DNA of 64,000 nucleotides from a virus (IMGVR_UViG_3300032330_001609:5975-69974), one strand, 5' to 3'; shown: positions 3,555 to 32,651, numbered from the stretch's first letter. A program made the numbers and translations. Notes: generated from the letters alone by a model not told the origin.

Positions 3555-5783
3555 ATGACTGATTTACAATTTACACCTAATGGTACATATAATGGATATA
3601 CTCAGTGGGAGGCAACTGATGGTATTGACACGTATTCTATTGTTTGGAATTTAGAAGGGTATTGGGAAATGTTAGGATGGTCTGTTGGTGATTTAAGAAG
3701 TTATTCATCACCAAATATTACACCATTAGATGGGTGGAGATTATACAATACAACAACAACAGGTATTTTCAATGTTTTTGAAGGTTATTGTATTCCTCTA
3801 ACCCCAACACCTACACCAACAAATACAGTAACTCCTACTGTAACACCAACTTCAACATTAAATATATGTGGTAATCAAGATAGTTTAGTTGACCCAATTA
3901 TTACAGAAAATGAAGAATATATTATAGTTGGTAACTGTGAATATTTAATGTTTATATATTCTGAACCGAGTCCAACACCAACAAATACTGTAACATCAAC
4001 TCCAACTATTACACCTACTCAAACACCGACTATTACACCTACTCAAACACCAACAATTACACCTGTATCTTGTACAGGAATACCGTATAATTTATCAACA
4101 ATATTTGATATTCCAATATCCGGAGATATTCTGTTCGCCAATTTAGGTGTTGGTGAAGCGAGTAATAATCCTGATGGTATTAATGAATATGGTGGTGTTT
4201 ATTTTAATGTTATTGATTTTAACGGAACTGACCAAACAAGTTATTTTAGTAATTTAATTGGTAATAACTTTTTATTAACGTTATGTCAAAATAATGTTAC
4301 AGCAACATATAGTGGTTCATCTGATTCATTTCAATTTTTAGATACAGCGTATTATTGTAGTACAGACACAGGTGCTAATTTTATTGAAACTATATCGGCA
4401 AACACTTTGTTTAATTTTGGTGAGATAGTATATATTGATTATTCTGTGGTTGCACCATCTACACCAACTCCTACACCGACAGTAACTGAAACACCTACAA
4501 ATACTCCAACAATAAGTGTAACACCAACAATTACACCAACAATAACTGAAACACCTACAAATACTCCGACAATAAGTGTAACACCAACAATTACACCAAC
4601 AATAACTTGTTCGAGACCGGAAGGGTTGTCTTCTTTTTCATTAGTATATGTTTGTAATAGTGTGGTTATTACAGGTTCGTTAATTGATGCTTGTAATTCA
4701 TTTAATTGTGCGGTACCTGGAAGCTATTCGGTAGAGGCGGTTTCGTTGAATGTTGGAGAAATCGTATATCTATTTAGTGGTGTCACTAGTTGCGAAACAA
4801 TACCAACAGGTTATTATACATATAATAATGATACTGTCATCTATATTGTTAATGGTGTTGTGGATAGTTATCCTATTTGCCCAAGTCCAACACCGACACC
4901 AACTAATACCGTAACTCCAACTGTAACACCAAGTTTTGGTATAAATTGTAGATGTGTTGAAGTGGTTATTAGTCAATTAGATATTGATTCCGCGACAGGT
5001 AATACAAGTAACCCATCATTAAACGGTGTTGTAAGATTTATGAACTCAGTAGGTGGTTCAAATTGTAGTGGTGGTACTATTTTTGACGAGTATAGTACAC
5101 CCGGAACATATTACTACTGTATGAATACGTTAGTAGGTATAACAAATTTATATTATTATGAAAACAATTCACTACGCTCTTACCCATCAATTAGTAGTAC
5201 ATATACGATATTACGTGATTCTATGTGTATTGATAGTCCAACTTGTTTACCGGCAACACCAACACCAACAATAAGTCAAACACCAACAATGACACCTACA
5301 CCTACAACACCATTGACTTGTGATACTTTTACTTTTAATGGTATTAACGCAAACACAACTATAAATTCTGCGATAAACACAGGAGGTGGTGGTTGGGATT
5401 CATCAGCATATTCGACAGAATCATATACAACACCTGTTACATTGACTTTCCAAACCACAGCTAATGGTAACTATTTAATGGGTGGATTCTCTTATAATCC
5501 AACTAGTAACCCTACAACTTATTTGAATACCACATACGGACTTTACATACAACCTAATTTCTTAGAGATATATGAAAATGGTGGACAAGTAACAGTTCCG
5601 GGTTCAATGACTAATTTATCAACTGATGTTTGGAAGGTAATTTATAATGGAACAAATGTTACATATTATAAAAATGATGTATTAATTTACACTTCATCAA
5701 ATCCGGTTACACAACCATTACACATTTTCTTTCCACTTTTAACACAAAATGAGGGAGTAACTAATGTTTGTGTTATTGGTTAG
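3555..5783 (+). CDS. Thr-Pro repeat multidomain putative virion fibre/decoration protein
   Basis: Five TPTPT linkers separate small beta-rich or Cys-containing domains; C-terminal jelly-roll-like domain. Confidence 0.7.
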   Translation: MTDLQFTPNGTYNGYTQWEATDGIDTYSIVWNLEGYWEMLGWSVGDLRSYSSPNITPLDGWRLYNTTTTGIFNVFEGYCIPLTPTPTPTNTVTPTVTPTSTLNICGNQDSLVDPIITENEEYIIVGNCEYLMFIYSEPSPTPTNTVTSTPTITPTQTPTITPTQTPTITPVSCTGIPYNLSTIFDIPISGDILFANLGVGEASNNPDGINEYGGVYFNVIDFNGTDQTSYFSNLIGNNFLLTLCQNNVTATYSGSSDSFQFLDTAYYCSTDTGANFIETISANTLFNFGEIVYIDYSVVAPSTPTPTPTVTETPTNTPTISVTPTITPTITETPTNTPTISVTPTITPTITCSRPEGLSSFSLVYVCNSVVITGSLIDACNSFNCAVPGSYSVEAVSLNVGEIVYLFSGVTSCETIPTGYYTYNNDTVIYIVNGVVDSYPICPSPTPTPTNTVTPTVTPSFGINCRCVEVVISQLDIDSATGNTSNPSLNGVVRFMNSVGGSNCSGGTIFDEYSTPGTYYYCMNTLVGITNLYYYENNSLRSYPSISSTYTILRDSMCIDSPTCLPATPTPTISQTPTMTPTPTTPLTCDTFTFNGINANTTINSAINTGGGGWDSSAYSTESYTTPVTLTFQTTANGNYLMGGFSYNPTSNPTTYLNTTYGLYIQPNFLEIYENGGQVTVPGSMTNLSTDVWKVIYNGTNVTYYKNDVLIYTSSNPVTQPLHIFFPLLTQNEGVTNVCVIG
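4483..4607 (+). repeat. 60-bp tandem duplication (2 copies, 1 mismatch) encoding TETPTNTPTISVTPTITPTI
   Basis: 4483-4542 is repeated from 4543 onward. Confidence 0.9.
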
Positions 5784-5834
5784 TAACTCTAAATAATAAT
5801 AAAATAAAAACTATTTATATAAAAAACAAAAATT

Positions 5835-6410
5835 ATGTTAACAGGAAAAACAATAGGTGAATTACCATTATTAACGGTAGTGAATGATGATGTTAAAGTA
5901 CCGGTAGAGGCAAGCGGTTCAACATATCACATACCTTTTTCAGATATTATACATAGACCTTTTGCGTCATATTACGATACAACAACACAATCTTTATCAG
6001 GGGTTAATACTCCAACAGTAATATCTTTTAATACTATTGTTATTGAAAGTGGTATTACTTTATCTGACTCAACAAAAATTATTGTTTCAACACCGGGTGT
6101 TTATAGTGTTGGGATATCTATGCAGTTCGATAAATCATCTTCATTATCGTTAGAACCAATATTTATTTGGACAAGAGTTAATGGTGATGATGTACCGGAT
6201 AGTTCAGGGGAAATTAGATTATTAAATAACAATTCAGAGGCGTTACCGTATATTCCTTATATCTATGAATTAAATGCTAACGATTATATTGAATTTATTT
6301 TTGCATCATCCGATGATTCTGTGAATTTATCGTATATATCATCATCGGACTCACCATATGTGAGACCGGGTGCACCATCAATTACTTTAGAAATAAAACA
6401 AATATCGTAA
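5835..6410 (+). CDS. C1q/BclA-C-like (TNF-fold) trimerisation-domain virion protein
   Basis: FASYYDTTTQ...ISFNT...GITL...IIVSTPGVYSV...LNANDYIE pattern; short N-terminal K.I.ELP fibre-anchor-like motif. Confidence 0.6.
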   Translation: MLTGKTIGELPLLTVVNDDVKVPVEASGSTYHIPFSDIIHRPFASYYDTTTQSLSGVNTPTVISFNTIVIESGITLSDSTKIIVSTPGVYSVGISMQFDKSSSLSLEPIFIWTRVNGDDVPDSSGEIRLLNNNSEALPYIPYIYELNANDYIEFIFASSDDSVNLSYISSSDSPYVRPGAPSITLEIKQIS

Positions 6411-6416: not shown

Positions 6417-7442
6417 ATGTCCCAATCAATAATAATTGAAAGTATAAATTTTGATGGAGAATTTGCAACCATTATATTAACCCCTTATAATAATGATAAT
6501 GTGGTTAACATTGGTTTGCAACAATTACCATATACTTTTAATCCAAGTTTAATCAATCCGTTACTTGAAATTTACGGGACATACACATTAGTAATAAATG
6601 AAAATGGTAAGGATTGTACTTATTTCTTAAATGTGATTAAGGAAACTCCTACTCCAACACCAACTATAACCCCAACTAAAACACCAACTCAAACACCTAC
6701 AGTTACTCCAACAGTTACACCAACTTACGACCCTTGTCCACAACCATCACAAACACCTTCACCAACAGAGACACCTACAAGTACACCAACTCCAACTGTA
6801 ACACCAACGGTTACTAAAACACCTTGTTTTGTCCCAAGTGCAACACCGACTAAAACACCAACACCTACACCAACTCCGATGTATTTTGCGTACTTATTTA
6901 TTGAACCAACAACCGGTTCAACTGATATAGGTCAATGGATGTTTGATAGTGGTTCTAATTTCTTTGGATTTACAAATAATAGTCAGCCAGCCCAAGACCA
7001 AACTCAATTTAATATTGATATGAATACGTATGTTGACTTTAGTGGTTGGACTAGTGGATTATTCCCAACAATTATTCAACAATCAGTACCACAACAAAGT
7101 GGTGGATTTGATACGTTTGGTAACCCAATTGTTAGATATAATTTCTTAACAACTGAGGTTCTTGAGAATACTGTTCCGGTAAATGCTTGGTATACTTGGA
7201 TAATCCCAATTTCATTAACAAATAATGAAACTCAAACGGCAATTGATGTTAATAGTGACGGTGACCCTAACTCATTAGCAACAGTATTGACTGATAGTAC
7301 AATTAATACTTACACATTTACATACTCAGGTAATACCATTCAACCGGTAACTTATAAAGTTTATACAACTTTCCCGAGTAGAATTTTTGCATTAAACAAT
7401 AATCAAAGTATTTATTTCAGAGGGAACACTGTTTCCCCTTAA
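6417..7442 (+). CDS. Thr-Pro repeat putative virion protein
   Basis: About 80-aa TP-rich linker between two globular domains. Confidence 0.7.
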
Positions 7443-7460
7443 TTAATATTTTGATGAAAT

Positions 7461-10400
7461 ATGTCTAATCTAAACTATAAGAATCCTTTATCACCTCTTA
7501 TTGCGAACGGAAGTCAAACTTCTTTACGTACAAGTACTTTTGGAACAACCTTTAGTGTTCTTAACACCGGAGGTTTTATGGAGGTTTATACTCTAAATGA
7601 TTTAATATACTCAATACCGTCAGGTTCTAATGGGGATATTGAATTTTCCGGCAATACAATCCCTGTTCAATTATGGAAAGGAACCGGTAGTTCATTCTCT
7701 TTTGACACATTAACATTAAATTCTGATAATATTTCATCAGGAAGACGCCGTCTTGGTATGTTGGTATATGTTTATGAAACAGACCAAATTTATCAATATT
7801 CAATTGACAATTATAACACATTATGGTCTAATGCTTTAGCATCTTCAGGGCCGGGTGGTAATACAATAGTTATTTCAGATTTTGGAACAACTGTAAAAAA
7901 TAATACTCCGGAAGGTCAAACATTTATTGACACTTGGACAGGTTCAACTATTGAAGGTGTTAATGGTGTTACAAGACCAAATGCAAGATGGAGAAAATAT
8001 TCTTCAGCAACTGACATATATGTTACCGGTGGTACATATTTTTCTGCATCAACAACATTAGATTTATATAGAAATGACGGTGCAACCATATCTATCACAG
8101 GATTTACATCCGGTGGTGGAGGTACCGGTACGTCAGGTACGTCAGGTACTTCGGGTACAAACGGTACTTCAGGAGCTAATGGTACTTCCGGTACTAGTGG
8201 TATGGATGGAACATCAGGAACAAGCGGTGAAAATGGTACTTCAGGGGTTAATGGAACGTCAGGTGAAAGTGGTACTTCAGGGGTTAATGGAACATCAGGT
8301 GAAAGTGGTACTTCAGGTATTAGTGGAACATCAGGTTCAAGTGGTATTGATGGAACTAGTGGAAGTTCAGGTACTAGTGGTATTGATGGAACTAGTGGAA
8401 GTTCAGGTACTAGTGGTAATAACGGTACTTCAGGAATAAATGGAACATCAGGTGAAAGTGGTACTTCAGGTATTAGCGGAACTTCAGGCATTAGCGGAAC
8501 TTCAGGTTCAAGTGGAACTTCAGGTTCTTCAGGAACAAGCGGAACAAATGGTAGAAACGGTACTTCAGGGGTTAGTGGGACATCGGGTTTAAGTGGTACA
8601 TCGGGTTTAAGTGGTACATCAGGTTCAAGTGGTACTTCAGGTTCAAGTGGTGAGAGTGGTACTTCAGGTAATAGTGGAAATGATGGTTCTAATTCAAGTA
8701 GATGGGAATATAATATTAATATAAGTCCTTTTAATGACCCTAGTGGTAAAAGATTTTTGAGTGATTCTTCATTATCCGCAGTAACAAAATTTAGTATTAG
8801 TAAAATTAATATATATAATGTTAATTTTTATCAATGGTTAAACGAATTAAGTACGATATATAGTAATCATAATAGAGTATTTTTTCAAATAACAAAAGTT
8901 GGAGATAATTCAGTAAGTGCAAATTATTACGTTGACAATGTTATTGATAATACAAATTATTTTGATATTTCACTTTCGTATATTGCCGGTACAGGCACAT
9001 TAGTTGATAGAGATGTTTGTACAATTTCTTGGGTTTATAATGGTCTTAATGGAACATCAGGTTTATCAGGAACAAGTGGAACGTCAGGTGCTAATGGTAC
9101 GAGAGGAACTTCAGGTAATAGTGGTACTTCAGGAACAAGCGGATTAAATGGAACTTCAGGTACTAGTGGTACTTCAGGAATTTCGGGTACAAGTGGTACA
9201 AGTGGTGTTAATGGAACTTCAGGTACTTCAGGTACTAGTGGTAATAACGGAACTTCAGGGACTAGCGGGATTAATGGAACTTCAGGTACTGCGGGAACAA
9301 GTGGCACTGCAGGGTCTTCAGGTACAAGTGGTACAAGTGGTGTTAATGGAACATCAGGTACTAGTGGTAATAACGGAACATCAGGAACATCAGGAACATC
9401 AGGTATAAACGGTACATCGGGAACTTCAGGGACTAGCGGTTCAAGTGGAACTTCAGGTTCATCAGGGACTTCGGGAACATCAGGGACTGCAGGTTCTTCA
9501 GGTACTAGTGGTATTAATGGAACATCGGGAACAAGCGGTTCAAGTGGAACATCGGGAACTAGTGGTTCTTCGGGTACAAGTGGAAGTTCAGGAACAACAG
9601 GTACTTCAGGTTCTTCGGGTACTAGCGGTTCATCAGGAACTTCAGGGACAAGCGGAAGTTCAGGAACAAGTGGGACTGCGGGAACAACAGGTTCATCAGG
9701 TACTTCAGGAACGAGTGGGTCTTCAGGAACAAGCGGTCAAAATGGTATATCAGGAGGTCAGAATTTATTCTTCAACCAATCAATTGCTGAAACACCATCA
9801 CCATTTAGACAACTTAATAAATTAACATCAGGAGCTGCTCAACAGACGGTTGTTGTTAATATGACATCTAACCAACAGAATGTTTTAGTTAGTACAGGAT
9901 TTATTACAGCAACAGGAATACCAAATGCCTTGGTTATACCAAATGGTATATGGCATTCATATATTTATTTTACCAAAAATGCAAGTAATAATGATATTGA
10001 TTATTATTTTACTGTATCAAAATATACGACGGGTGGAACAACAACATTGTTGTTTACATCTGACGCTGCTCCTTTAGGTTGGGATACAAATAATACAACA
10101 CCGGTTGAGGTTAAAACAAATGGAGTTGCGACCACTGCGGTATTAGTACCATCAGATAGATTGATTGTTAATTTATATGTGAATAACAAAGATAATCAAT
10201 CTCGTTCTATTACATTCTATACGGAAGGAACACAACATTACTCTTATATTGTAACAACATTAGAGGCAGTTAGTGGAAGTAGTGGTACAAGTGGAACATC
10301 AGGTGCTAACGGAACATCAGGAACTAGTGGGACTGCGGGAACAACAGGTTCTTCCGGAACTAGTGGTACATCAGGTTCTGCAGGAACAAGCGGAACTTCA

Positions 10401-13269: not shown

Positions 13270-13971
13270 ATGGCAACAATAAATTCAGCAACAACAAGAG
13301 GTAGTGTAAAAGCAAGTGGAACTGATTTATCTTTTGGTAGTTGGGAAGATGTTAGAGATTTAACTAATGGTAATTCAGTTTCTGTTAATACAAATGATGC
13401 TCAAGCAGTTAGAGCGGGTCAAGTTATTAGTAAACTTGCAACCACTTGGACTTGTCATAGATATTTTATGGCTTTTGATACTTCATCGGTTACTTCAGTT
13501 CCGGGGTCAGCCACGTTATATGTTTATGGAAATACAACCGCGACAAGTGATTTAATAGCCGTTAAAGCGACTGCACCAACAACCTCAACTAATATTGCAA
13601 CAACAAATTATTCAAACATAGTTGGATATACTCCAGGTACATTATCACCTATGCAAGGATTTGTTACTGAATATTCCGGTTATATTGCTCCGGGGTGGAG
13701 TACAACCGGATATAACGCTATACCATTAACTGCTGCCGCATTATCTGATATGGATAGTTTAACAACACTTAAATTAGCATTGGTTAATTATACATACGAT
13801 TATTTATTAACAGGTTTTATTGGTACTACAGTTCAAACGGGTATTAACATTACTAATCCACCCTATATTGAATATACAGGATTTGGTGGGAAGATTTATA
13901 GTATATCATTGGCGTCAATTAGTAAAGTTGATGATATCTCTAAAGGTTCTATAAGTAGAATAAACACCTAA
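13270..13971 (+). CDS. Putative virion structural protein (fibre-associated)
   Basis: Thr/Ser/Ala-rich; R.FMAFDTS....SATLYVYG resembles a DNRLRE/CBM96-like pattern; starts 4 nt after the fibre gene. Confidence 0.55.
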   Translation: MATINSATTRGSVKASGTDLSFGSWEDVRDLTNGNSVSVNTNDAQAVRAGQVISKLATTWTCHRYFMAFDTSSVTSVPGSATLYVYGNTTATSDLIAVKATAPTTSTNIATTNYSNIVGYTPGTLSPMQGFVTEYSGYIAPGWSTTGYNAIPLTAAALSDMDSLTTLKLALVNYTYDYLLTGFIGTTVQTGINITNPPYIEYTGFGGKIYSISLASISKVDDISKGSISRINT

Positions 13972-24326: not shown

Positions 24327-25322
24327 TTGAAAAAAAATATTAAAATTTCAAGAGCGGGATTTCCGGGTGTTGGTAATTTTTCTTGGATGAATTATTTAAC
24401 TAAAATTTTATCTAAAAAATATAATGTAGTTATTGATAGTAAAAATCCGGATTTAATACTATATTCAAATTTACACTATAACTCAAATCAACTTGACTAT
24501 TATACTAATGATTTAACCAAAGGTGTTGATGATTATGATAATAATGTTATAAAAATATTTATTTCGGGTGAGGCAAACCCTGGTTACTTATCACACATTA
24601 ATAAGGGTGAAAATTATTACGCATTAGGGTATGAACATATTGACCATCCAAGATATTTAAGATTCCCTACTTATGTTTTAGACGCGTTTGTGTTACATAA
24701 TGAGGGGGAAATGTTTGATGAACCGTTTGATTGGTTAATTGATAGGTCAAAAATTGGTGTATCAATTGAAGATAAATTACATTTTTGTAGTGTTGTCCAA
24801 GCTAGTGAGAATAATGATAGAGGTAAAATGTTTGATTTAATATCCTCTAAATACTATATTAAGTCATCAGGACCTTGGAGACCTACAATCCAAAATAACG
24901 AGGAATTAAATAGACATAAATATCATAACTACAGCAACCCTGATTATATGGGTAAGATAGATGGATTAACATATAAAGATAAAATTAATTTTTTCAAAAA
25001 TTGTTATTTTAATTTATCTTTTCAATATACAAACACAAATTATTTAACTCAAGAAAAAATAATACATTCTTTCGCGTCAAATTCAATCCCAATTTTTTAT
25101 GGTAATAATAATATATTAGATGAAGGATTTAATCCGGACTCATTTATTAATGTTCATAACTATAAAACATTTGAGGAATGTTTTAATCACATTAATGAGA
25201 TTTATGAAAATAAAAACTTATTAAATTCATATTTAACCGCACCAATTTTTGTTGACAATAAATTACCAATATATTTTGAGGAAAGTTATATGTTAAATTT
25301 TTTAGAAAACATTTTGAAATAA
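24327..25322 (+). CDS. GT10 alpha-1,3-fucosyltransferase-like protein
   Basis: NPDLILYS, ISGEAN, YLRFP, FCSVV, YLTQEKI..SF....IPIFYG, FNPDSFIN; matches the Helicobacter FucT layout. TTG start. Confidence 0.75.
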   Translation: MKKNIKISRAGFPGVGNFSWMNYLTKILSKKYNVVIDSKNPDLILYSNLHYNSNQLDYYTNDLTKGVDDYDNNVIKIFISGEANPGYLSHINKGENYYALGYEHIDHPRYLRFPTYVLDAFVLHNEGEMFDEPFDWLIDRSKIGVSIEDKLHFCSVVQASENNDRGKMFDLISSKYYIKSSGPWRPTIQNNEELNRHKYHNYSNPDYMGKIDGLTYKDKINFFKNCYFNLSFQYTNTNYLTQEKIIHSFASNSIPIFYGNNNILDEGFNPDSFINVHNYKTFEECFNHINEIYENKNLLNSYLTAPIFVDNKLPIYFEESYMLNFLENILK

Positions 25323-25323: not shown

Positions 25324-25998
25324 ATGAAGAAATTAATTTCATTTACACTATTTGGAGATAGTCCAAAATACAACATTGGTGCTATTAAAAATATTGACCA
25401 GTTTAATCAGATGTTACCTGATTGGGATGTTGTAATATATTATCATAAAAATAATATTAATAAAAATGTCTTAACGGATTTAGAAAATCGTAATGTTATT
25501 TTGGTAGATGTTTCAGAGTTTAATTTAACTAAAAAACCAATAACGGAGTATTCTTATTTTTGGAGATTTTTCGCGTTTTTTGAAAACAATAATTATGTTA
25601 TTTCTAGAGATTTAGATAGTAGACCATCAAACAGAGAAATAACTTATATTAATAATTGGGTTAATTCCGGTAAAGATTTTTTTATAATAAGAGACCATCC
25701 TTGGCATTCACCAATTCCTGCAGGATTATTAGGTATGAAAAATAACGGTGAAAAATTCAAATCACATTTAATTAATTATATTGATAATAATAATATTAAA
25801 TGGGGGAGTGACCAAGAAATTTTAGAAGATTTTTTTAGACTAATATCCAATGACAATATTTTTTATTGTGGATTTAACGATAATCTTAATTATATTAAAA
25901 GAGATGATGAAAATTTTTTCATTGGTATGCAATTAGATGAAAACGACGAATCAATTTCACCTGTTGCGGTTACTTTTTTAAAAGAAATGGGTTATTAA
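25324..25998 (+). CDS. Putative GT-A glycosyltransferase
   Basis: ISFTLFG...Y..GA..N, FWRF, SRDLDSR (DxD), IIRDHPWH, GSDQ. Confidence 0.6.
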   Translation: MKKLISFTLFGDSPKYNIGAIKNIDQFNQMLPDWDVVIYYHKNNINKNVLTDLENRNVILVDVSEFNLTKKPITEYSYFWRFFAFFENNNYVISRDLDSRPSNREITYINNWVNSGKDFFIIRDHPWHSPIPAGLLGMKNNGEKFKSHLINYIDNNNIKWGSDQEILEDFFRLISNDNIFYCGFNDNLNYIKRDDENFFIGMQLDENDESISPVAVTFLKEMGY

Positions 25999-26001: not shown

Positions 26002-26715
26002 ATGTTAAAAAAATATATATATTGTACTATAGCCGTTAATCAAAGCTATATTGATTACGCTATTAAATTTGCTAATCAGTTATATGAGAAATCACCAAAT
26101 AGTAAAGTTTTAATTGTTTCAGATATTGATAATATTGATTTACCGAATGTTATTTATCATAAAATTCCTGAACATTATAAAACAAAATTGTTGATGGGTA
26201 ACATATTCAATTACAACCTAAAATTCTATCCAATATTAAAATCGTTAGAGGAAAATTATGAATATATTATTTTTAAGGATTGTGATTGGGAAATTTATGA
26301 CGGTTATTCTGATGAAAAATTAGATAATTTAATTAGTGTTTTTGAAGAATCTGGATACGATTGTTTTTTTGAAAGACCATATTCAATTAGTTCAAAATAT
26401 ACTGATAAAAATTGTATATTCAAACATAAGATTGACATATATAATCTTATGGAAACTGATAAATATGACAAAGGGGTTGTTCCAATAGAACAATTCTTTT
26501 TATTCAAAAACTCTCCAAAGTTAAAGATTTTTTGTGATAAATGGGCTGAGAGAGAAAAAATAATTTCAGACAGTAATATACACCCTTGGGCTGAAGGTTT
26601 AGAAATAGGGATGTCTTTAATTGATGCGGATATGACATATAATAATTCAAGATTTACAGAAATCTCCAATTGTTTCAAATTTGATTCATATGGGAATAAA
26701 CATACAAGATATTAA
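26002..26715 (+). CDS. Putative GT-A glycosyltransferase
   Basis: CTIAV...Y, FNYNLK, FKDCD (DxD); located inside the GT operon. Confidence 0.5.
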   Translation: MLKKYIYCTIAVNQSYIDYAIKFANQLYEKSPNSKVLIVSDIDNIDLPNVIYHKIPEHYKTKLLMGNIFNYNLKFYPILKSLEENYEYIIFKDCDWEIYDGYSDEKLDNLISVFEESGYDCFFERPYSISSKYTDKNCIFKHKIDIYNLMETDKYDKGVVPIEQFFLFKNSPKLKIFCDKWAEREKIISDSNIHPWAEGLEIGMSLIDADMTYNNSRFTEISNCFKFDSYGNKHTRY

Positions 26716-26732
26716 TAAAAATAAATAAAAAA

Positions 26733-27338
26733 ATGGAAGTTAGAGGACATTACGCTTATAAAAATTTAACAATATCACAACACACTTCAGTACCTGAAAG
26801 TTTTGAGATATTAATTAAAAAAATTAAACCTAAACAAGTATTGGAAATAGGAACTGCATTTGGTGGTTTAACATTACTAATAAGAGATTTGTTAGACAAC
26901 AATGGTTTAACAGAAACTAAATTAATAACATATGATGTTTACGACCCGGTATATCTTAGGGAAAATGTAAGTAAAGGTTCTAACATTGATATTAGAGTCA
27001 AAAATGTTTTTAATCATCAGTATAACGAATTAATCAATAAGGATGAAATTTCTGAAATTATCCAATCAAATGGTGTGACATTAGTATTATGTGACGGTGG
27101 TAGTAAAAAGAATGAATTTAGAATTTTATCTGATTACTTAAAACCCGGTGATGTCATAATGGCTCACGATTATGCGCCTAATGAAACTTATTTTCAAGAA
27201 CATATTAATAATAAAATTTGGAATTGGTTGGAAATACAGGATAGTGATATTAATGAATCTTGTGTTAAGAATAATTTAATACCATATATGGAAGACGAAT
27301 TTAGACAAGTTGTTTGGGTTTGTAAAATTAAAGAATAA
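26733..27338 (+). CDS. CmcI/Methyltransf_24-like SAM methyltransferase (sugar O-methyltransferase-like)
   Basis: VLEIGTAFGG, ITYD, LCDGG, LKPGDVIMAHD. Confidence 0.8.
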   Translation: MEVRGHYAYKNLTISQHTSVPESFEILIKKIKPKQVLEIGTAFGGLTLLIRDLLDNNGLTETKLITYDVYDPVYLRENVSKGSNIDIRVKNVFNHQYNELINKDEISEIIQSNGVTLVLCDGGSKKNEFRILSDYLKPGDVIMAHDYAPNETYFQEHINNKIWNWLEIQDSDINESCVKNNLIPYMEDEFRQVVWVCKIKE

Positions 27339-27347
27339 ATTACTATT

Positions 27348-29033
27348 ATGAATAAGGACATTACTATTGTTACCGGACTTTGGGATTTAGGTAGAGGAAA
27401 ATTAGATTCTTGGGCTAAAAGAGATTTTAATCATTATAAAGAACGTTTTTTTGAAATGTTAGAGGCAGACGCTCAGATGTGTATTTGGATACCATCAGAA
27501 TTAAAGGTGGATGTGGAAAGAATACGTGGTAATAAACCAACAAGAATTTTTATCAAAGAAGTTTCTGATTTTGAAACTTGGAATCCTTTTTTTGATAAAA
27601 TACAGGAAATTAGAAAAAATGAAAATTGGTTATCACAAGCGGGATGGTTAAGAGAGTCACCTCAAGCAACTTTAGAATCATATAACGCAATGATGTTTAC
27701 TAAAATGTTTATGTTAAATGATTCCGCAATAACCAATCCATTCAATAGTAAATATTTTTATTGGATTGACGGGGGATTAACAAATACGGTTAATAAAGGA
27801 TATTTTCAAAAAGATTTAGTTTTAGATAATTTAGGTAATTTTATGTCTCAAAAAGATATAAAATACGTTCATTTGGCATATCCATATGAAGGTAATACTG
27901 AAATACACGGATTTGAAAGAACTGCGATGGCAAAATATTGTAATACTGATTATGTTAGATATGTTTGTCGTGGAGGATTTTTTGGTGGTGATAAAGATGT
28001 TATTCATCAACTTAATACGTTATACTACTCTATTATGGAGAATACATTAGGAAGTGGTTATATGGGTGCGGATGAATGTTTTTTTACAATTTTAACACAT
28101 ACTTATCCAAATTTAATTTATAAGTATGATATTGAAGGTAATGGTCTTGTGTGGCCGTTTTTTGAAGAACTTAAAAAGTATGATAAAGAATTTATTAAAA
28201 TAAATAAAGTATCTAAAATAAATGTTGATAATGTTGGTATTTACGTAATAACATTTAATTCCCCAAAACAATTTGAGGTGTTAATTCAATCAATGTTGGA
28301 TTATGATAAAGATTTTATTAATAAACCAAAGAAATTTTTATTAGATAACTCAACGGATTTATCGACAACCCCAAGATATGTTGAATTATGTGAACAATAT
28401 GGGTTTGAACATATTAAAAAAGATAATATTGGAATCGTTGGTGGTAGAGTATTTGTTGCGGAACATTTTAATGAAACAGATTTAGATTGTTATTTTTGGT
28501 TTGAAGATGATATGGCATTTTATTCTAAAAAAGGAGAAGTCTGTAGAAATGGTTTTAATAGAGTTGTTGATAATCTTTATCAAAAATCATTAGAAATTGT
28601 TAAACAAGAAAATTTTGACTTCTTAAAATTAAATTATTCAGAATTTTTTGGGGATAATTCTATACAATGGTCTTGGTATAATGTCCCTCAATCATTTAGA
28701 GAAACACATTGGCCTAACAATAAAAAATTACCGGTACAAGGTTTAGACCCAAATGCTCCGGCAACTAAATTTACATCAATAAAAACTTATAAAGGTTTAT
28801 CTTATATTACCGGAGAAATTTACTTATGTAATTGGCCAATCATATTAACAAGAGAGGGTAACTATAAATGTTATTTAGAAACTAAATGGGCTCATCCATT
28901 TGAACAAACTCTTATGTCTCATTGTTATCAAGAAACTGTTAAAGGAAATATTAATCCGGGGTTATTGTTATTGACACCAACTGAACATAATAGATTTGAT
29001 TTTTATGATGGTAATTTAAGAAAAGAAAGTTAA
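27348..29033 (+). CDS. HtrL/YibB (WlaTC)-family glycosyltransferase fused to a GT2-like domain
   Basis: ITIVTGLWDLGR...HY.ERF, NPFNSKYFYWIDGG, GGFFGG; second domain VITFNS...LLDNS...WFEDD. Confidence 0.75.
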   Translation: MNKDITIVTGLWDLGRGKLDSWAKRDFNHYKERFFEMLEADAQMCIWIPSELKVDVERIRGNKPTRIFIKEVSDFETWNPFFDKIQEIRKNENWLSQAGWLRESPQATLESYNAMMFTKMFMLNDSAITNPFNSKYFYWIDGGLTNTVNKGYFQKDLVLDNLGNFMSQKDIKYVHLAYPYEGNTEIHGFERTAMAKYCNTDYVRYVCRGGFFGGDKDVIHQLNTLYYSIMENTLGSGYMGADECFFTILTHTYPNLIYKYDIEGNGLVWPFFEELKKYDKEFIKINKVSKINVDNVGIYVITFNSPKQFEVLIQSMLDYDKDFINKPKKFLLDNSTDLSTTPRYVELCEQYGFEHIKKDNIGIVGGRVFVAEHFNETDLDCYFWFEDDMAFYSKKGEVCRNGFNRVVDNLYQKSLEIVKQENFDFLKLNYSEFFGDNSIQWSWYNVPQSFRETHWPNNKKLPVQGLDPNAPATKFTSIKTYKGLSYITGEIYLCNWPIILTREGNYKCYLETKWAHPFEQTLMSHCYQETVKGNINPGLLLLTPTEHNRFDFYDGNLRKES

Positions 29034-29069: not shown

Positions 29070-29486
29070 ATGGAATTTTTTATTAAAAAGAAAGCAACTT
29101 TACCGGTATTAAAACTTCAAGTAGTTAAAGACGGTAGAAGTGATTATAATCATTTTATGAAAGCGATTGAATTATCTTCTATCTTTTTTTCTATGGTTGA
29201 TGTTGAAACAGGTTTAATTAAGATTAATTCAAAACCCGGAGGATTTGTTGAAAAAACCTTTACAGACCCAAATGCTGAACCGGAATATTATATTTATTAC
29301 CAATTTACATCAACTGATACTAACCGAGTTGGTAGATATGAAGGACAATTTCTTCTTAAAAATGATGACGGTAATTTAATTGTTCCAATTAGAGAACAAT
29401 TGTTTATTAATGTTCAAGAATCGTTTGTTGCAGACGATTTAGTTTACGACACACCACACACATCAGAATTTCCTTGTTGTAATTAA
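29070..29486 (+). CDS. BppU-N-like Ig-fold fibre/baseplate adaptor
   Basis: FFIKK..TLP.L, Y.F...DT...G.YEGQF pattern. Confidence 0.55.
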   Translation: MEFFIKKKATLPVLKLQVVKDGRSDYNHFMKAIELSSIFFSMVDVETGLIKINSKPGGFVEKTFTDPNAEPEYYIYYQFTSTDTNRVGRYEGQFLLKNDDGNLIVPIREQLFINVQESFVADDLVYDTPHTSEFPCCN

Positions 29487-29537: not shown

Positions 29538-32500
29538 ATGGCAAATATTAAGTATTTAGTTAAAAATTTAAGTTCTAATATTGTTTTATTGAGTTATCAA
29601 AACTCTAATGACAATATGTGGAATTACCAAGTGGTTTTAAGACCCGGTCAAACCAAAAATATATGGTGTGTTGAAGGTACTTTATCTCACTCAGGAAGAA
29701 ATAGTGATGTAAGCATTACTGTTGATACAAGTACGTGTACACCAATTACACCAACAACATCACCAACACCTATTGTTGGTAATTCAAACCCATTAACTTT
29801 AACACCGGTATATTATCCGGGGTCTATTGGTGTGGTTTATACATTATCGTCAAAATATCCTTCAGATACTGACATTACTGTTAATTTTACTAACTTATTA
29901 GGAACTATTGATAATGGAGGTATTTCTATTAAAAGTTCTGTAACTTTATTTACCGGTGAAAAATCAGGTTCAACTGAAGTAATTATTGACGGTGATTTTA
30001 CCACATTAAATGACTCAAGTTTGTTCTCTGATGTTATAGTAACAACAGATAGTCCTTCACAATACATTGAAACCCCAATATCGGCACCACCTTTGGTTAT
30101 TAGACCTATAAAACCTTTCGACCCTCCAACTTATTTAGCGGTATATCTTGTTCAAAGTTGTTGTTATTCTGGTGTGACCGGTCTTATGTCATTAAAAGTT
30201 GGTGGTTTTAATTCTATTGATTGGGTAGGTATGGTTGTGGTTGATACATTAGGGAATTGTTATACCGTTATTGAAGAATATCCACTAGTTGCAGACCCTG
30301 TACAAATGAGACCTCAAAGTTTAACTTATGGTGGTGGTTACTATCAAAATTGTGAAATTTGTCTTGCTAAATATCCGTGTAGTGTTGTTAGACCAACACC
30401 AACACCAACAACATCTGCTGTCGCAGTAACACCTTGTAATGTAACACCAACACCAACACCAACTGTTAGTAAAGCGTGTGCAACAGGTCAACCAATAATT
30501 AATAGTGTATTTAATACAACCGGTAATACTTTTATGGTGTATTTTACAACACAAGGATGTTGTGATGCGTTAACGGTTAGTTGGTCATCTAATAATATAA
30601 CTTGGAATAATTCTACTGCAGGTTGTGGTTCACCAAGAACAATAACTATTCCGAATTCATCAAGTTATCCATCACTTTATTTTAGAATTACACAAATTTG
30701 TAATGGTTGTAATACGTTAAATTCAAATGTATTAACACTAAACACCGTAACAGTAACACCTACATCAACACCGGGGGCAACTCCAACAGTAACACCAACA
30801 ATATCGGTAACACCAACTAAAACACCAACACAAACACCTACTAAAACACCAACACAAACACCAACACAAACACCATTGAGATATGGTGCTTACCTTGTAC
30901 AATCTTGTTGTGAAGGAAAAGGAGCTACAGGTGTTATATTATTACCAACAACTTTCCAAGTTGGTACAACAATTGTTACAACAGGTGATTTATGTATGAC
31001 AATTACAGGTAGAGCCCCTAAAGGTGCTATTGCAACACATACTTGGAATTCAGCGTCTATATTCTCAGGTTGTACTGAATGTACAAACGAATATCCTTGT
31101 CAATTAACACCAACACCGACACCGACACCAACAGTTACACCAACATTAACATTAGGTTATACACCTTGTATTGAAATTACAAGTGAGTGTCGAACTCAAA
31201 TAGCAACTCCGGGTCAAATAATTAATGGACATATTTCATACACATTTATATCCGGATTTGGTAATCCAACATTGATTTATTGGGAAAATGGTGCTTGGTT
31301 AGTGATAAATACTGATACAAAAGAAGTTTGTTCGTCATTAAAAGGTGATTCACAATTTCCAATTGGAACGTCATCGGAATGGCAATCATCAATACCTCCA
31401 GTAAAAGGTTGTGAATGTTTAGGTAGTGATACAGGATTTAACACGATTTTAAGTTATTGTCCAACACCTACACCAACACCTACAAAAACCCCTACACCAA
31501 CACCTGCGTTTTGTGAAGGTAACTTAGTAACTAATGGTAATTTTAATAGTAGTTTAAGTGGATGGTCACAAAGTGTTAGTGGTAATTGGGTTTGGAGTGA
31601 TTATTTTGGTGGTAGTGCACATTATGTTGGTGAAGATGAAGGAGGACTTTTATTCCAAGATATATTAACCGAAGGTGCTACTTATAATATCACATTTACA
31701 TTATACAATTACGCTTCTTGTACTGAGTATGGTTATGTAGTTGTTTATGCGGGTGATTCTATGTCGTTACCAATTAGTGACACCGGAGTAACTTATCAAA
31801 ATGTCACACTTATATGTGGAACAGGTATTGGTTTTGGAATTTCAGGTGAAGACGCTTGTGGTGGTGGAAATATTGGAACAATATATATTGATAATCTTTG
31901 TATTACAGAAATTGCCGGACCGACACCTACACCTACAGCAACAATAGGTACAACACCAACAAATACTCCAACACATACACCAACACCAACTGTTACACCA
32001 ACAAGTACTGTTACAGGATGTATTGATTGTGATGTATCAGGATATTCTTATATAATATCAAACACAACAACAAACCCATCAACTGCAACTGTTTGTGGTA
32101 GAATAATAACAACATCAAATTCAACACTAACAGTTTTAAGTAATGGTAATCCTATTGCATACGCATCTAACATAACAGAATGGAATAATTACTGTAATAA
32201 TAATATTCCTTGTTATACTTATTGGCAATTTAACCCTTCGGAGGCATATAGAGGATGTATGTATAATCAACAGGCAATTAATAATTTAGCACCTGCGGGA
32301 TGGAGAGGATTAACATATGAGGATGTTGTTTATTTTATAACTTGTTACGGTAACGCAAATGTATTTGCCGCAAACACAGGTCATTGGAATTTAAGTTTTT
32401 GGACAAATAGAACCCAAGCGGGTGAAACAGGTGTGAATTTCCAAGGTTATGGTTGGGGGAGTTGGAACCCTAGTAGTAATCAAATTGATTGGGTTTATGA

Positions 32501-32651
32501 TGGAAGAGCTGAAGTTCACGGATTTACCAATATAACCGCACCTAATTATACTTCTTATGTAAGTATTATTTCAGGAAAAATTTATTGGGGGTCTTCAGTG
32601 GAAACTAATTATCTAAAAGCACCTAAATACGCAAGATTTATAAAACTATAA
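29538..32651 (+). CDS. Thr-Pro repeat, Cys-rich multidomain putative virion protein with CBM-like and degenerate Fib_succ_major-like domains
   Basis: TP linkers; two QSCC modules; NLVTNGNF...GW (CBM4/9-like); G.MYN..A...LAPAGWR (FISUMP-like). Confidence 0.65.
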   Translation: MANIKYLVKNLSSNIVLLSYQNSNDNMWNYQVVLRPGQTKNIWCVEGTLSHSGRNSDVSITVDTSTCTPITPTTSPTPIVGNSNPLTLTPVYYPGSIGVVYTLSSKYPSDTDITVNFTNLLGTIDNGGISIKSSVTLFTGEKSGSTEVIIDGDFTTLNDSSLFSDVIVTTDSPSQYIETPISAPPLVIRPIKPFDPPTYLAVYLVQSCCYSGVTGLMSLKVGGFNSIDWVGMVVVDTLGNCYTVIEEYPLVADPVQMRPQSLTYGGGYYQNCEICLAKYPCSVVRPTPTPTTSAVAVTPCNVTPTPTPTVSKACATGQPIINSVFNTTGNTFMVYFTTQGCCDALTVSWSSNNITWNNSTAGCGSPRTITIPNSSSYPSLYFRITQICNGCNTLNSNVLTLNTVTVTPTSTPGATPTVTPTISVTPTKTPTQTPTKTPTQTPTQTPLRYGAYLVQSCCEGKGATGVILLPTTFQVGTTIVTTGDLCMTITGRAPKGAIATHTWNSASIFSGCTECTNEYPCQLTPTPTPTPTVTPTLTLGYTPCIEITSECRTQIATPGQIINGHISYTFISGFGNPTLIYWENGAWLVINTDTKEVCSSLKGDSQFPIGTSSEWQSSIPPVKGCECLGSDTGFNTILSYCPTPTPTPTKTPTPTPAFCEGNLVTNGNFNSSLSGWSQSVSGNWVWSDYFGGSAHYVGEDEGGLLFQDILTEGATYNITFTLYNYASCTEYGYVVVYAGDSMSLPISDTGVTYQNVTLICGTGIGFGISGEDACGGGNIGTIYIDNLCITEIAGPTPTPTATIGTTPTNTPTHTPTPTVTPTSTVTGCIDCDVSGYSYIISNTTTNPSTATVCGRIITTSNSTLTVLSNGNPIAYASNITEWNNYCNNNIPCYTYWQFNPSEAYRGCMYNQQAINNLAPAGWRGLTYEDVVYFITCYGNANVFAANTGHWNLSFWTNRTQAGETGVNFQGYGWGSWNPSSNQIDWVYDGRAEVHGFTNITAPNYTSYVSIISGKIYWGSSVETNYLKAPKYARFIKL

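What the first reader, a model, noticed from the sequence alone, without database searches (positions are those of the whole stretch)
3555..32651. Phage-encoded dual protein O-glycosylation system for a glycan-coated virion
Seen: two GT clusters (about 12 GT or GT-like domains, 2 MTases) are interleaved with five genes carrying long Ser/Thr-rich repeats. Known: TibC/Aah enzymes O-heptosylate Ser in repetitive adhesins, and GT60 enzymes add alpha-GlcNAc to Thr of protist mucins or to Hyp of Skp1. Each initiator sits near a plausible substrate class: the TibC-like gene is one small gene from the Gly-Thr-Ser fibre, and GT60 directly follows a Thr-Pro protein. Inference: the phage primes, extends (GT2/4/25/HtrL), fucosylates (GT10) and O-methylates glycans on its own fibres, giving a glycocalyx reminiscent of giant viruses. 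It could serve shielding, fibre stiffening or adhesion. No nucleotide-sugar synthesis genes are in the window.
Basis: partly seen in the sequence, partly recalled or inferred. Interest (0 to 1): 0.92.

Follow-up and report, generated by a model that had tools for sequence, protein, structure and literature searches.

The report
Jumbo-phage fibre sugar-coating gene island
A large uncultured T4-like phage keeps two sets of soluble protein-glycosylating enzymes beside its own collagen-like and Thr-Pro-linker fibre genes. Each enzyme is present or absent together with its own repeat type across related and cultured phages, so the phage probably sugar-coats its particle, though no sugar has been measured.

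Summary
Window 3555-32651 lies in a 215-kb T4-like jumbo-phage record. It contains four Thr-Pro-linker proteins, a 1934-aa proline-poor (Gly-Thr-Ser)n collagen-like fibre, two methyltransferases and two clusters of soluble glycosyltransferases.

One enzyme is a true Aah/TibC-family domain (TIGR04414, 290 bits against a cut-off of 200). It keeps the catalytic Asp and the four iron-binding Cys. Another is a strong GT60 match (PF11397, 248 bits) with an invariant DSH motif.

Across 24 phage records, the TibC-like gene tracks GTS collagen genes (16 of 17 against 0 of 7). GT60 tracks Thr-Pro linkers (17 of 17 against 1 of 7, the exception being a half-complete record). The two pairs separate from each other, including in the cultured phages Mel-JY01, XacN1 and RAS14. 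XacN1 virions have published Schiff-stained glycoprotein bands.

Not shown: the sugars, the acceptor sites, and that these proteins are in the virion. The records are related, so independent gains or losses are few.

This scan reached the same reading on at least seven other genomes. I found no paper describing it. I rate it a new variant of a known kind (phage-encoded virion glycosylation).

The parts
3555..5783 (+). 742-aa Cys-rich multidomain protein with TP linkers; candidate GT60 acceptor.
   Evidence: Translation; linker runs. It shares linker-flanked modules with the other TP proteins.
5835..6410 (+). 191-aa Ser-rich small protein of unknown role.
   Evidence: 16% Ser. Weak BclA_C match, E 0.0055, below the cut-off. 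TATTTATA motif 23 nt upstream.
6417..7442 (+). 341-aa protein with about 68 residues of TP linker; candidate GT60 acceptor.
   Evidence: Homologues occur in 21 of 80 GT60 loci.
7461..13265 (+). 1934-aa proline-poor (Gly-Thr-Ser)n collagen-like fibre; candidate acceptor of the TibC-like enzyme.
   Evidence: Pfam Collagen E 1e-120 in 12 stretches. 315 GXY triplets, 171 of them GTS and 45 GSS. Matches PHROG tail-fibre families at E 6e-125, largely through the repeats.
13270..13971 (+). 233-aa Thr/Ser/Ala/Gly-rich protein between the fibre gene and the TibC-like gene; function unknown.
   Evidence: Composition. No family match. No homologue in the related loci.
13972..16767 (-). 931-aa three-domain glycosyltransferase: GT2 (about residues 1-290), GT4 (about 291-560) and an Aah/TibC-type O-glycosyltransferase (600-929).
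   Evidence: Pfam. TibC structure 4rap, E 8.6e-52. TIGR04414, 289.8 bits against a cut-off of 200. Key residues checked.
16769..17314 (-). 181-aa class I SAM methyltransferase.
   Evidence: Methyltransf_23 and Methyltransf_11.
17316..18293 (-). 325-aa free-standing copy of the middle domain of the 887-aa enzyme.
   Evidence: phmmer E 9e-20 over its whole length. Present in 18 of 80 TibC-like loci. Weak WavE-like lead for the paralogous region.
18293..20956 (-). 887-aa multidomain GT, the constant partner of the TibC-like gene. N-terminal GT4 GT-B fold, a middle alpha/beta domain plus beta-sandwich, and a GT25-like C-terminus.
   Evidence: Pfam. AF2 model with pLDDT 76.7. Foldseek hit to BshA 5d01, E 4e-12. 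Atlas score 0.96 for PF01755 clusters. Found in 79 of 80 TibC-like loci.
21034..23010 (+). 658-aa Cys-rich protein with TP linkers, directly upstream of GT60; candidate GT60 acceptor.
   Evidence: Homologues in 43 of 80 GT60 loci. Promoter-like motif 11-17 nt upstream.
23076..24323 (+). 415-aa GT60-family glycosyltransferase; candidate initiator on Thr of TP linkers.
   Evidence: PF11397 E 3.3e-73, 247.6 bits against a cut-off of 21. DSH at 92-94 is invariant in 62 distinct sequences. 45-50% identical to genes of XacN1, Xoo-sp13, CM1 and RAS14.
24327..25322 (+). 331-aa GT10-like (fucosyltransferase-family) enzyme; a variable accessory gene.
   Evidence: PF00852, 36.3 bits against a cut-off of 23.9. 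Present in only 2 of 80 GT60 loci.
25324..25998 (+). 224-aa protein, unassigned.
   Evidence: No Pfam, PHROG or NCBIfam match. Present in 6 of 80 GT60 loci.
26002..26715 (+). 237-aa protein, unassigned; homologue of XacN1 ORF331.
   Evidence: blastp E 1e-11 to XacN1 ORF331, which lies inside the XacN1 GT60 module.
26733..27338 (+). 201-aa methyltransferase; candidate sugar O-methylase.
   Evidence: Methyltransf_24, 26.8 bits, and a weak RMNT_CmcI match. Present in 17 of 80 GT60 loci.
27348..29033 (+). 561-aa tandem GT-A enzyme (HtrL/YibB-like N-terminal half plus a second GT-A domain); the constant partner of GT60.
   Evidence: PF09612 E 7.6e-16. AF2 model with pLDDT 80.7. Foldseek hits to the two-GT-A proteins LH3, Mimivirus R699, LARGE1, COLGALT1 and K4CP, E 5e-10 to 2e-7. 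Found in 73 of 80 GT60 loci. 38% identical to XacN1 ORF330 and RAS14 WAX21640.
29070..29486 (+). 138-aa conserved module. In relatives it is the N-terminus of longer, variable proteins, so it is a likely attachment part of the following fibre.
   Evidence: Present in 70 of 80 GT60 loci. Homologous ORFs are 179-784 aa long.
29538..32651 (+). 1037-aa Cys-rich multidomain protein with TP linkers; candidate GT60 acceptor.
   Evidence: Promoter-like motif 22 nt upstream.

Best explanation
The island most likely encodes two cytoplasmic, lipid-carrier-independent protein O-glycosylation modules that the phage uses on its own fibre proteins before or during virion assembly.

Module A (13972-20956, minus strand): an Aah/TibC-type domain puts the first sugar on Ser, and possibly Thr, of the (Gly-Thr-Ser)n collagen-like fibre. 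The fused GT2 and GT4 domains, the 887-aa GT4/GT25-like partner and a methyltransferase then extend and cap the glycan.

Module B (23076-29033, plus strand): a GT60 enzyme puts the first sugar on Thr of the Thr-Pro linkers of the Cys-rich multidomain proteins. The tandem GT-A partner extends it. Variable accessory genes (GT10-like, methyltransferase, two unassigned genes) diversify it.

Shown here: family membership of both initiators, conservation of their catalytic motifs, the constant enzyme partners, the absence of predicted transmembrane segments in the enzymes (no signal-peptide predictor was run), and the co-occurrence of each initiator with one repeat class.

Inferred: the acceptors, the sugars, the order of steps, virion location and purpose. 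Possible purposes are stiffening or stabilising a Pro-poor triple helix, protecting extended linkers from proteases, shielding, or adhesion.
For: 1. Initiator A is a family member. TIGR04414 scores 289.8 bits against a cut-off of 200, and TibC 4rap matches at E 8.6e-52. The equivalents of Asp110, Thr226, Lys230, Trp305 and Cys339/342/358/370 are invariant in 49 distinct phage sequences (residue roles from PMC4358343).

2. Initiator B: PF11397 at 247.6 bits, with DSH invariant in 62 sequences.

3. None of the enzymes has a predicted transmembrane segment by hydropathy. No signal-peptide predictor was run.

4. Constant pairs. The TibC-like gene occurs with the 887-aa GT in 79 of 80 loci. GT60 occurs with the tandem GT-A gene in 73 of 80 loci, and also in XacN1, RAS14 and 15 of 18 XacN1-like loci.

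5. TibC-like gene and GTS collagen:
- 19 of 36 dereplicated TibC-like loci have a GXY gene within 10 kb. It is always GTS- or GSS-dominated and is often the convergent neighbour.
- All seven long records picked only by their collagen gene carry the TibC-like gene.
- Over 24 records, 16 of 17 TibC-like-positive records have GTS-type collagen, against 0 of 7 negative ones.
- Among the 12 records not chosen by either trait the table is 4/1/0/7, Fisher p about 0.01.

6. GT60 and TP linkers:
- Over 24 records, 17 of 17 GT60-positive records have TP runs, against 1 of 7 GT60-negative ones. The exception is 49% complete.
- Among the 12 records not chosen by GT60 the table is 5/0/1/6, p about 0.008.
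- PT-rich genes flank or precede GT60 in diverged lineages: G014 at 45% identity, and L281/L283 at 38-39%.

7. Double dissociation. G001 and G005 have GT60 and TP but neither the TibC-like gene nor collagen. G013, G016, G017 and Mel-JY01 are the reverse.

8. XacN1 virions show at least two Schiff-positive protein bands (PMC5852040).

9. The motif TATTTAT[AC] sits 11-51 nt upstream of GT60 and of the TP genes at 21034 and 29538. It also sits upstream of the tail tube and baseplate genes.

10. The collagen protein matches PHROG tail-fibre families.
Against: - No experimental datum exists for this phage, and no glycan has been measured.
- The records are related. The sheath tree resolves few branches, so well-supported branches force only one loss of the TibC-like/collagen pair. 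GT60-negative records fall in two distant clades.
- TibC acts on beta-helical strand-loop-strand repeats, not on collagen-like chains.
- The Arg286 equivalent, a sugar-binding residue needed for TibC activity, is Thr in 46 of 49 phage sequences. The beta-hairpin thumb tip is not conserved.
- 17 of 36 dereplicated TibC-like loci show no collagen gene within 10 kb, though many of these contigs are cut short.
- TP linkers are common plain linkers in some bacterial phyla and need no sugar to work.
- Virion presence of the TP proteins is inferred from position only.
- Module A lacks the shared promoter-like motif.
Confidence: 0.6

Rival explanations
1. The enzymes remodel host envelope glycans (LPS, capsule, O-glycans of surface proteins) during infection, for example to block superinfection or to aid release. 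They sit among fibre genes only by genome organisation, and the repeats are plain unglycosylated linkers or spacers.
For: GT2, GT4, GT9, GT25 and HtrL/YibB families are typical of LPS and polysaccharide synthesis. PHROGs files the GT families under 'moron, auxiliary metabolic gene and host takeover'. Soluble GTs can act on lipid-linked acceptors at the membrane.
Against: No flippase, polymerase, phosphoglycosyl transferase or ligase appeared among the window's ORFs, and no membrane segment is predicted in region proteins. Both initiators come from families with only protein acceptors known. This reading does not explain why each initiator is present or absent together with one repeat class. 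XacN1 virions carry glycoproteins.
Confidence: 0.13
2. The enzymes glycosylate proteins, but not these ones. Targets could be other virion proteins (capsid, tail tube, as in mycobacteriophages) or host proteins such as adhesins. The repeat genes merely share the structural module.
For: In mycobacteriophages the glycans sit on capsid and tail-tube C-termini (as summarised in PMC12619734). TibC's natural substrates are beta-helical adhesins. The glycoprotein bands of XacN1 were not identified.
Against: The initiator-repeat co-occurrence and the double dissociation are not expected under this reading. The acceptor chemistry fits: TibC modifies Ser, and to my knowledge characterised GT60 enzymes modify Thr in Thr/Pro-rich mucin peptides.
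Confidence: 0.15
3. The clusters, or at least the GT60 module that lies near the DNA polymerase here and in XacN1, glycosylate hypermodified bases of the phage DNA.
For: Phage GT clusters that hypermodify DNA are known (bioRxiv 10.1101/2023.12.21.572611; PMC13326640). GT60 lies within about 10 kb of PolB in 53 of 80 loci and in XacN1.
Against: The record has no Tet/JBP hit, although that search rang in no control genome and so does not show absence. The only thymidylate-synthase-family gene matches canonical ThyA best, E 6e-71. Neither DNA-GT paper mentions GT60, HtrL or XacN1. The record is 73% complete, so absence is not proven.
Confidence: 0.05

Closest known systems
Aah/AIDA-I and TibC/TibA of E. 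coli (bacterial autotransporter heptosyltransferases; TIGR04414; PDB 4rap)
   Same: The domain is homologous and scores above the equivalog cut-off. It keeps the catalytic Asp, three of four sugar-binding residues and the Cys4 iron finger. Like TibC it is soluble, would act directly from a nucleotide sugar on many Ser residues of a repetitive fibrous protein, and is encoded beside its presumed substrate.
   Different: It is phage-encoded and fused to GT2 and GT4 (to FkbM-type methylase or other domains in relatives). The Arg286 equivalent is Thr. The thumb that builds the dodecamer is not conserved. The presumed acceptor is a collagen-like Gly-Thr-Ser chain, not a beta-helix. No heptose-pathway family searched (CTP_transf_like, SIS_2) has a hit in the record, so the donor is unknown.
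GT60 polypeptide alpha-GlcNAc transferases (Skp1 Gnt1 of Dictyostelium and Toxoplasma; mucin-type enzymes of Trypanosoma cruzi and Dictyostelium). Their properties are from my own knowledge.
   Same: Strong PF11397 match with the DSH motif. Thr/Pro-rich candidate acceptors resemble protist mucin acceptor peptides. A soluble enzyme fits the cytoplasmic Gnt1 type.
   Different: Phage-encoded. It always comes with a tandem GT-A partner. The record has no prolyl hydroxylase, so the hydroxyproline route is unlikely. Neither sugar nor acceptor has been tested.
Mycobacteriophage virion glycosylation (Freeman et al. 2023, Cell Host Microbe; known here only through citing papers)
   Same: Phage-encoded GTs are thought to decorate the phage's own structural proteins in the cytoplasm.
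   Different: The enzyme families and acceptors differ: C-terminal tails of capsid and tail tube there, collagen-like and TP-linker fibre proteins here. This case has two separate initiator/acceptor pairs and no experimental proof.
Xanthomonas jumbo phage XacN1 (PMC5852040)
   Same: It carries the GT60 gene (49% identity), the tandem GT-A partner (38%) and an ORF331 homologue. A 3313-aa baseplate-adjacent protein has PT linkers. Its virions contain Schiff-positive glycoproteins.
   Different: No TibC-like gene and no collagen gene. It has a carbamoyltransferase in place of methyltransferases. The authors did not link the GT to PT tracts or name the family.
Glycosylated collagen-like surface fibres: BclA of the Bacillus anthracis exosporium, and Mimivirus fibrils with collagen-modifying enzymes (from my own knowledge; Mimivirus R699 and human LH3/COLGALT1 appear as fold matches)
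   Same: A collagen-like Gly-X-Thr/Ser filament on a particle surface is paired with dedicated GTs. Tandem GT-A architecture is shared with collagen glycosyltransferases.
   Different: The initiator families and linkages differ (rhamnose-based O-glycans on BclA Thr; Glc-Gal on hydroxylysine in animals and Mimivirus). The fold match reflects the two-GT-A architecture, not shown common function.

Membership tests
Aah/TibC autotransporter O-heptosyltransferases (BAHT, TIGR04414) | Score above the curated equivalog cut-off over nearly the whole model | tested here: met
   289.8 bits against 200; model positions 28-373 of 374; residues 600-929. TibC 4rap E 8.6e-52.
Aah/TibC autotransporter O-heptosyltransferases (BAHT, TIGR04414) | Catalytic base Asp110 | tested here: met
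   Asp667 in the SLGD motif aligns with TibC Asp110 and is invariant in 49 distinct phage sequences. Role from PMC4358343.
Aah/TibC autotransporter O-heptosyltransferases (BAHT, TIGR04414) | Iron finger Cys339, Cys342, Cys358, Cys370 | tested here: met
   Cys883, 886, 902 and 914 are all invariant in 49 sequences.
Aah/TibC autotransporter O-heptosyltransferases (BAHT, TIGR04414) | Four sugar-binding residues Thr226, Lys230, Arg286, Trp305 | tested here: not met
   Thr, Lys and Trp are invariant. The Arg286 equivalent is Thr in 46 of 49 sequences and Ile in 3. This suggests an altered donor or altered binding. The stereoselectivity position (TibC Pro300, Aah Ser294) is Ser in 47 of 49.
Aah/TibC autotransporter O-heptosyltransferases (BAHT, TIGR04414) | Beta-hairpin thumb (Phe265/Val266) and dodecamer assembly | tested here: inconclusive
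   The thumb region aligns with gaps, and the tip residues are Gly and Asn in the window protein. Oligomeric state cannot be read from sequence.
Aah/TibC autotransporter O-heptosyltransferases (BAHT, TIGR04414) | Transfers heptose from ADP-heptose to Ser of an autotransporter passenger | not testable with these tools
   No autotransporter is encoded. The record has no CTP_transf_like or SIS_2 hit. Donor and acceptor need biochemistry.
GT60 (PF11397, polypeptide GlcNAc transferases) | Pfam score above the gathering cut-off | tested here: met
   247.6 bits against 21, E 3.3e-73.
GT60 (PF11397, polypeptide GlcNAc transferases) | DxH-type metal/nucleotide motif (DSH) | tested here: met
DSH at 92-94 is invariant in 62 distinct sequences, including XacN1 and RAS14.
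GT60 (PF11397, polypeptide GlcNAc transferases) | Hydroxyproline route (Skp1 type) needs a prolyl 4-hydroxylase | tested here: not met
   No 2OG-FeII_Oxy_3 hit in the 215-kb record. The record is 73% complete.
GT60 (PF11397, polypeptide GlcNAc transferases) | Alpha-GlcNAc transfer from UDP-GlcNAc to Thr/Ser of a polypeptide | not testable with these tools
   Needs an enzyme assay.
GT10 fucosyltransferases | Pfam Glyco_transf_10 C-terminal domain above the cut-off | tested here: met
   36.3 bits against 23.9, covering only positions 46-136 of 182. Activity not tested.
Collagen triple-helix repeat proteins (PF01391) | Uninterrupted G-X-Y periodicity | tested here: met
   E 1e-120 in 12 stretches. 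Seven GXY blocks of up to 297 residues.
Collagen triple-helix repeat proteins (PF01391) | Pro/Hyp or charge-pair content that stabilises the helix | tested here: not met
   X is Thr in 190 and Y is Ser in 236 of 315 triplets. The protein has 28 Pro in total and few charged residues.
Phage DNA-glycosylation systems | A route to hydroxymethyl or hydroxy pyrimidines (dCMP/dUMP hydroxymethylase, or C5-methylase plus TET/JBP) | tested here: not met
   No Tet_JBP hit, although that search rang in no control genome and so cannot show absence. The only TS-family gene best matches canonical ThyA. The record is incomplete.

The most novel reading that the evidence does not exclude
The phage particle carries two chemically distinct glycoconjugate fibres made entirely by viral enzymes. 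The first is a half-micrometre-scale Pro-poor collagen whose triple helix exists only because nearly every Gly-Thr-Ser triplet is glycosylated by a TibC-type enzyme with a changed donor pocket. The second is a set of mucin- or proteoglycan-like fibres, in which GT60 primes Thr of TP linkers and the tandem GT-A partner polymerises a repeating disaccharide. That partner has the same two-domain architecture as LARGE1, chondroitin polymerase and heparosan synthase. Swapping of accessory GTs and methylases between related phages would then diversify the coat in an arms race with hosts or grazers.
Probability: 0.15. Interest if true: 0.9.

Novelty: new variant of a known kind. Interest (0 to 1): 0.72.

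Why it matters
Glycosylated virions are routine for eukaryotic viruses but have been demonstrated for very few phages. If this reading holds, a widespread group of aquatic jumbo phages builds its own glycoprotein fibres. IMG/VR holds at least 500 loci with the TibC-like gene and 246 with GT60. The phages would be using two enzyme families known so far from bacterial virulence adhesins and from protist mucins or Skp1.

This would add a new layer to phage-host recognition, particle stability and phage antigenicity. It would also provide soluble, sequon-simple O-glycosylation enzymes for (GTS)n and (TP)n tags. And it would offer a natural test of whether glycosylation can replace proline in stabilising a collagen helix.

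Three cultured phages carry one module each: Mel-JY01, XacN1 and RAS14. The question is therefore directly testable.

Tried and rejected
- Profile searches of the 887-aa and 561-aa partner proteins against PDB sequences found nothing. Only predicted folds gave assignments.
- Pfam at E up to 5, PHROGs and NCBIfam gave nothing for 17316-18293, 25324-25998, 26002-26715, 29070-29486 and 13270-13971.
- The middle domain of the 887-aa protein got only a weak WavE-like Atlas lead, score 0.88. I do not count it as a GT.
- DNA glycosylation was considered because GT60 lies near PolB. I rejected it as the main reading: no hydroxymethyl-pyrimidine route was found, and the known DNA-GT papers do not mention these families.
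- The hydroxyproline route for GT60 is unlikely because no prolyl hydroxylase was found.
- The sheath C-domain tree was meant to count independent losses, but it was too poorly resolved. The ML tree needs 3 changes for the group lacking both the TibC-like gene and collagen, while well-supported branches force only 1.
- The plain count of TATAAATA in the window is not above chance (19 found, 16 expected). Only its position directly upstream of genes is informative.
- The Freeman et al. 2023 paper is not held in the library, so I cite it only through other papers.
- Whether this phage belongs to the published 'moraphage' lineage (PMC12619734) was not tested.

Full report
**Context.** The window is bases 5975-69974 of a 214,776-bp IMG/VR virus record that CheckV rates 73% complete. 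It is a T4-like myophage. It has a tail sheath at 45736-49398, a gp19-type tube at 50435-50923, a T4 baseplate protein at 51036-51794, a family-B DNA polymerase at 34974-38012 and an SNF2 helicase. GC content is about 0.27-0.43. The nearest cultured relative by sheath is Microcystis phage Mel-JY01, at 31% identity. TP-linker proteins elsewhere in the record carry SprB and Fib_succ_major domains, which suggests a Bacteroidota host.

**Observation.** ORF calling and Pfam confirm the layout.
- Four Cys-rich multidomain proteins (3555-5783, 6417-7442, 21034-23010, 29538-32651) carry 2-4 short TP linkers each.
- The 1934-aa protein at 7461-13265 has 315 G-X-Y triplets, 171 of them GTS and 45 GSS. 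It has only 28 Pro in all. Its repeats match PHROG tail-fibre families.
- Cluster A, on the minus strand, holds a 931-aa GT2-GT4-TibC-like fusion, a methyltransferase, a 325-aa protein and an 887-aa GT.
- Cluster B, on the plus strand, holds GT60, a GT10-like gene, two unassigned genes, a methyltransferase and a 561-aa HtrL-like protein.
- None of the region's proteins has a predicted transmembrane helix by hydropathy; no signal-peptide predictor was run.

**The enzymes.**
- The C-terminal third of the 931-aa protein is a true Aah/TibC-family domain. TIGR04414 scores 289.8 bits against a cut-off of 200, and TibC 4rap matches at E 8.6e-52.
- I took residue roles from the TibC structure paper (PMC4358343). 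The catalytic Asp110, Thr226, Lys230, Trp305 and all four iron-finger Cys are invariant in 49 distinct phage homologues.
- The Arg286 equivalent is Thr in 46 of 49, and the Pro300 position is Ser as in Aah. The donor may therefore not be ADP-heptose.
- GT60: PF11397 at 247.6 bits, with DSH at 92-94 invariant in 62 sequences.
- AlphaFold models built from alignments of locus homologues (A1, A2; pLDDT 76.7 and 80.7) gave folds for the two partners.
  - The 887-aa protein starts with a GT4 GT-B fold (BshA, E 4e-12) and ends in a GT25-like domain (Atlas 0.96). Its middle region is paralogous to the free-standing 325-aa gene (E 9e-20).
  - The 561-aa protein is a tandem GT-A enzyme. Its best fold matches are two-GT-A proteins: LH3, Mimivirus R699, LARGE1, COLGALT1 and chondroitin polymerase.
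- This makes nine supported GT domains and two methyltransferases.

**Conserved cores.** IMG/VR holds at least 246 GT60 relatives, 500 TibC-like relatives and 264 (GTS)n loci.
- Within 10 kb, the TibC-like gene is accompanied by the 887-aa GT in 79 of 80 loci.
- GT60 is accompanied by the tandem GT-A gene in 73 of 80 loci and by the 138-aa module in 70 of 80.
- The GT10-like gene (2 of 80), the methyltransferase (17 of 80) and the unassigned genes (6 of 80) are variable accessories.
- The GT60 and tandem GT-A pair also occurs in the Xanthomonas and Stenotrophomonas jumbo phages XacN1 and RAS14, and in 15 of 18 XacN1-like contigs.

**Co-occurrence with the repeat classes.**
- 36 dereplicated TibC-like loci include 19 with a G-X-Y gene within 10 kb. 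That gene is always GTS- or GSS-dominated, is up to 3117 aa long, and is often the convergent neighbour despite very different domain fusions of the enzyme.
- I scored whole records for both enzymes and both repeat types.
- Three cultured phages were added.
  - Mel-JY01 has the TibC-like gene and a GTS/GSS collagen-like frame 2.6 kb upstream. It has no GT60 and no PT runs.
  - XacN1 and RAS14 have GT60 and 31 and 11 PT runs. They have no TibC-like gene and no collagen.
- Over the 24 records, 16 of 17 with the TibC-like gene have GTS-type collagen. The exception is 46% complete. None of the 7 without it has collagen.
- All 17 with GT60 have TP runs, against 1 of 7 without. That exception is 49% complete.
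- Ascertainment correction: restricting to the 12 records not chosen by the trait pair under test gives tables of 4/1/0/7 (p about 0.01) and 5/0/1/6 (p about 0.008).
- The two pairs dissociate. G001 and G005 have GT60 and TP only. G013, G016, G017 and Mel-JY01 have the TibC-like gene and collagen only.
- PT-rich genes flank GT60 in G014 (GT60 45% identical). A PT protein directly precedes GT60 in L281 and L283 (38-39% identical).
- Caveat: the sheath tree resolves few branches, so the number of independent events is small and uncertain.

**Other support.**
- XacN1 virions show at least two Schiff-stained glycoprotein bands. The authors attributed them to the two phage GTs without further analysis (PMC5852040).
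- XacN1's 3313-aa baseplate-adjacent ORF325 ends in PT linkers.
- The motif TATTTAT[AC] lies 11-51 nt upstream of GT60, of the TP genes at 21034 and 29538, of the 138-aa gene and of 5835. It also lies upstream of the tail tube and baseplate genes. This fits shared timing.

**Rivals.**
- Host-envelope remodelling fits the LPS-type families. However, no membrane machinery was seen in the window, and this reading does not explain the repeat co-occurrence.
- DNA glycosylation is known for phages. Here I found no hydroxymethyl-pyrimidine route, and the thymidylate synthase is canonical.
- Other protein targets, such as capsid or tube as in mycobacteriophages, remain possible.

**Sugar supply.** The record has no Epimerase, NTP_transferase, CTP_transf_like or SIS_2 hit. 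But 9 of 10 near-complete relatives (all rated at least 91% complete) carry epimerase/dehydratase genes and 6 of 10 carry cytidylyltransferase-like genes. In G013 one abuts the TibC-like gene. The missing 27% of this genome may therefore hold such genes.

**Novelty.** Full-text searches found no paper linking BAHT or GT60 enzymes to phages. A 2025 description of aquatic Bacteroidota jumbo phages notes four core GT families without assigning targets (PMC12619734). Phage virion glycosylation as a kind is known from mycobacteriophages. Earlier reports of this scan reached the same reading on at least seven other genomes. I reached the pairings before reading them, and took only the TIGR04414 lead from them.

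**Verdict.** I put confidence at about 0.6 that the phage glycosylates its own fibres through these two enzyme-acceptor pairs.

Noticed in passing
L002:14-2176 (+), GenBank PP395634.1 (Mel-JY01): The plus-strand frame encodes a GTS/GSS collagen-like protein (77 GTS and 57 GSS triplets). The record annotates Pro/Val/Glu-rich 'hypothetical proteins' on the opposite strand (1-651 and 739-2298). These look like shadow ORFs of the repeat.
   Followed up: partly
window 7461-13265: 45 triplets have Asn in the Y position followed by Gly-Thr, giving N-G-T sequons. In relatives, GTN triplets equal or outnumber GTS (for example 357 GTN to 267 GTS in L192). No GT41/HMW1C-type N-glycosyltransferase appeared among the window's ORFs.
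   Followed up: no
window 652, 5812, 21017, 23026, 29049, 29516, 42267, 50386, 50985, 51961, 53925 (+); 638, 39530, 40439 (-): TATTTAT[AC] lies 11-51 nt upstream of gene starts in the sense orientation. 15 of 25 occurrences are of this kind, although intergenic DNA is a small share of the window. It looks like a promoter element shared by tail genes, the GT60 cluster and the TP genes. Cluster A has no copy.
   Followed up: partly
window 29070-29486: The 138-aa protein is a separate gene here. Its homologues in relatives are the N-terminal part of ORFs of 179-784 aa with variable C-termini. This is the pattern expected of a conserved virion-attachment module with exchangeable distal parts.
   Followed up: partly
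window 670-3552: A 960-aa Cys-rich protein ends in a papain-like peptidase domain (Peptidase_C1 E 5.6e-6; phrog_16701 peptidase E 1.3e-54). It sits at the head of the fibre gene row.
   Followed up: no
L004:334-1119 (-), upstream of the window: A weak GT8-like ORF (PF01501, E 0.0014, below the cut-off) lies about 5 kb before the window. The island may extend further.
   Followed up: no
L003:2497-5154, 6496-8841, 10544-12118 (-), record 102-112 kb: Three more TP-linker proteins lie far from the GT clusters. One has a SprB repeat and one a Fib_succ_major domain, both Bacteroidota-type surface-protein domains. If GT60 serves TP linkers, it must also act on genes that are not adjacent to it.
   Followed up: partly
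L245:1486-2724 (+), record 210740-211978: The thymidylate synthase is 412 aa, against about 264-320 aa for the ThyA structures matched, and matches the family in separate stretches. So it carries an insertion or extension of unknown nature.
   Followed up: no
G013:C1:201215-202902 (-); G014:C1:138423-139788 (+): In complete relatives, sugar-nucleotide genes cluster with the system. In G013 an epimerase/dehydratase abuts the TibC-like gene. In G014 an epimerase and a cytidylyltransferase-like gene are adjacent to each other.
   Followed up: no
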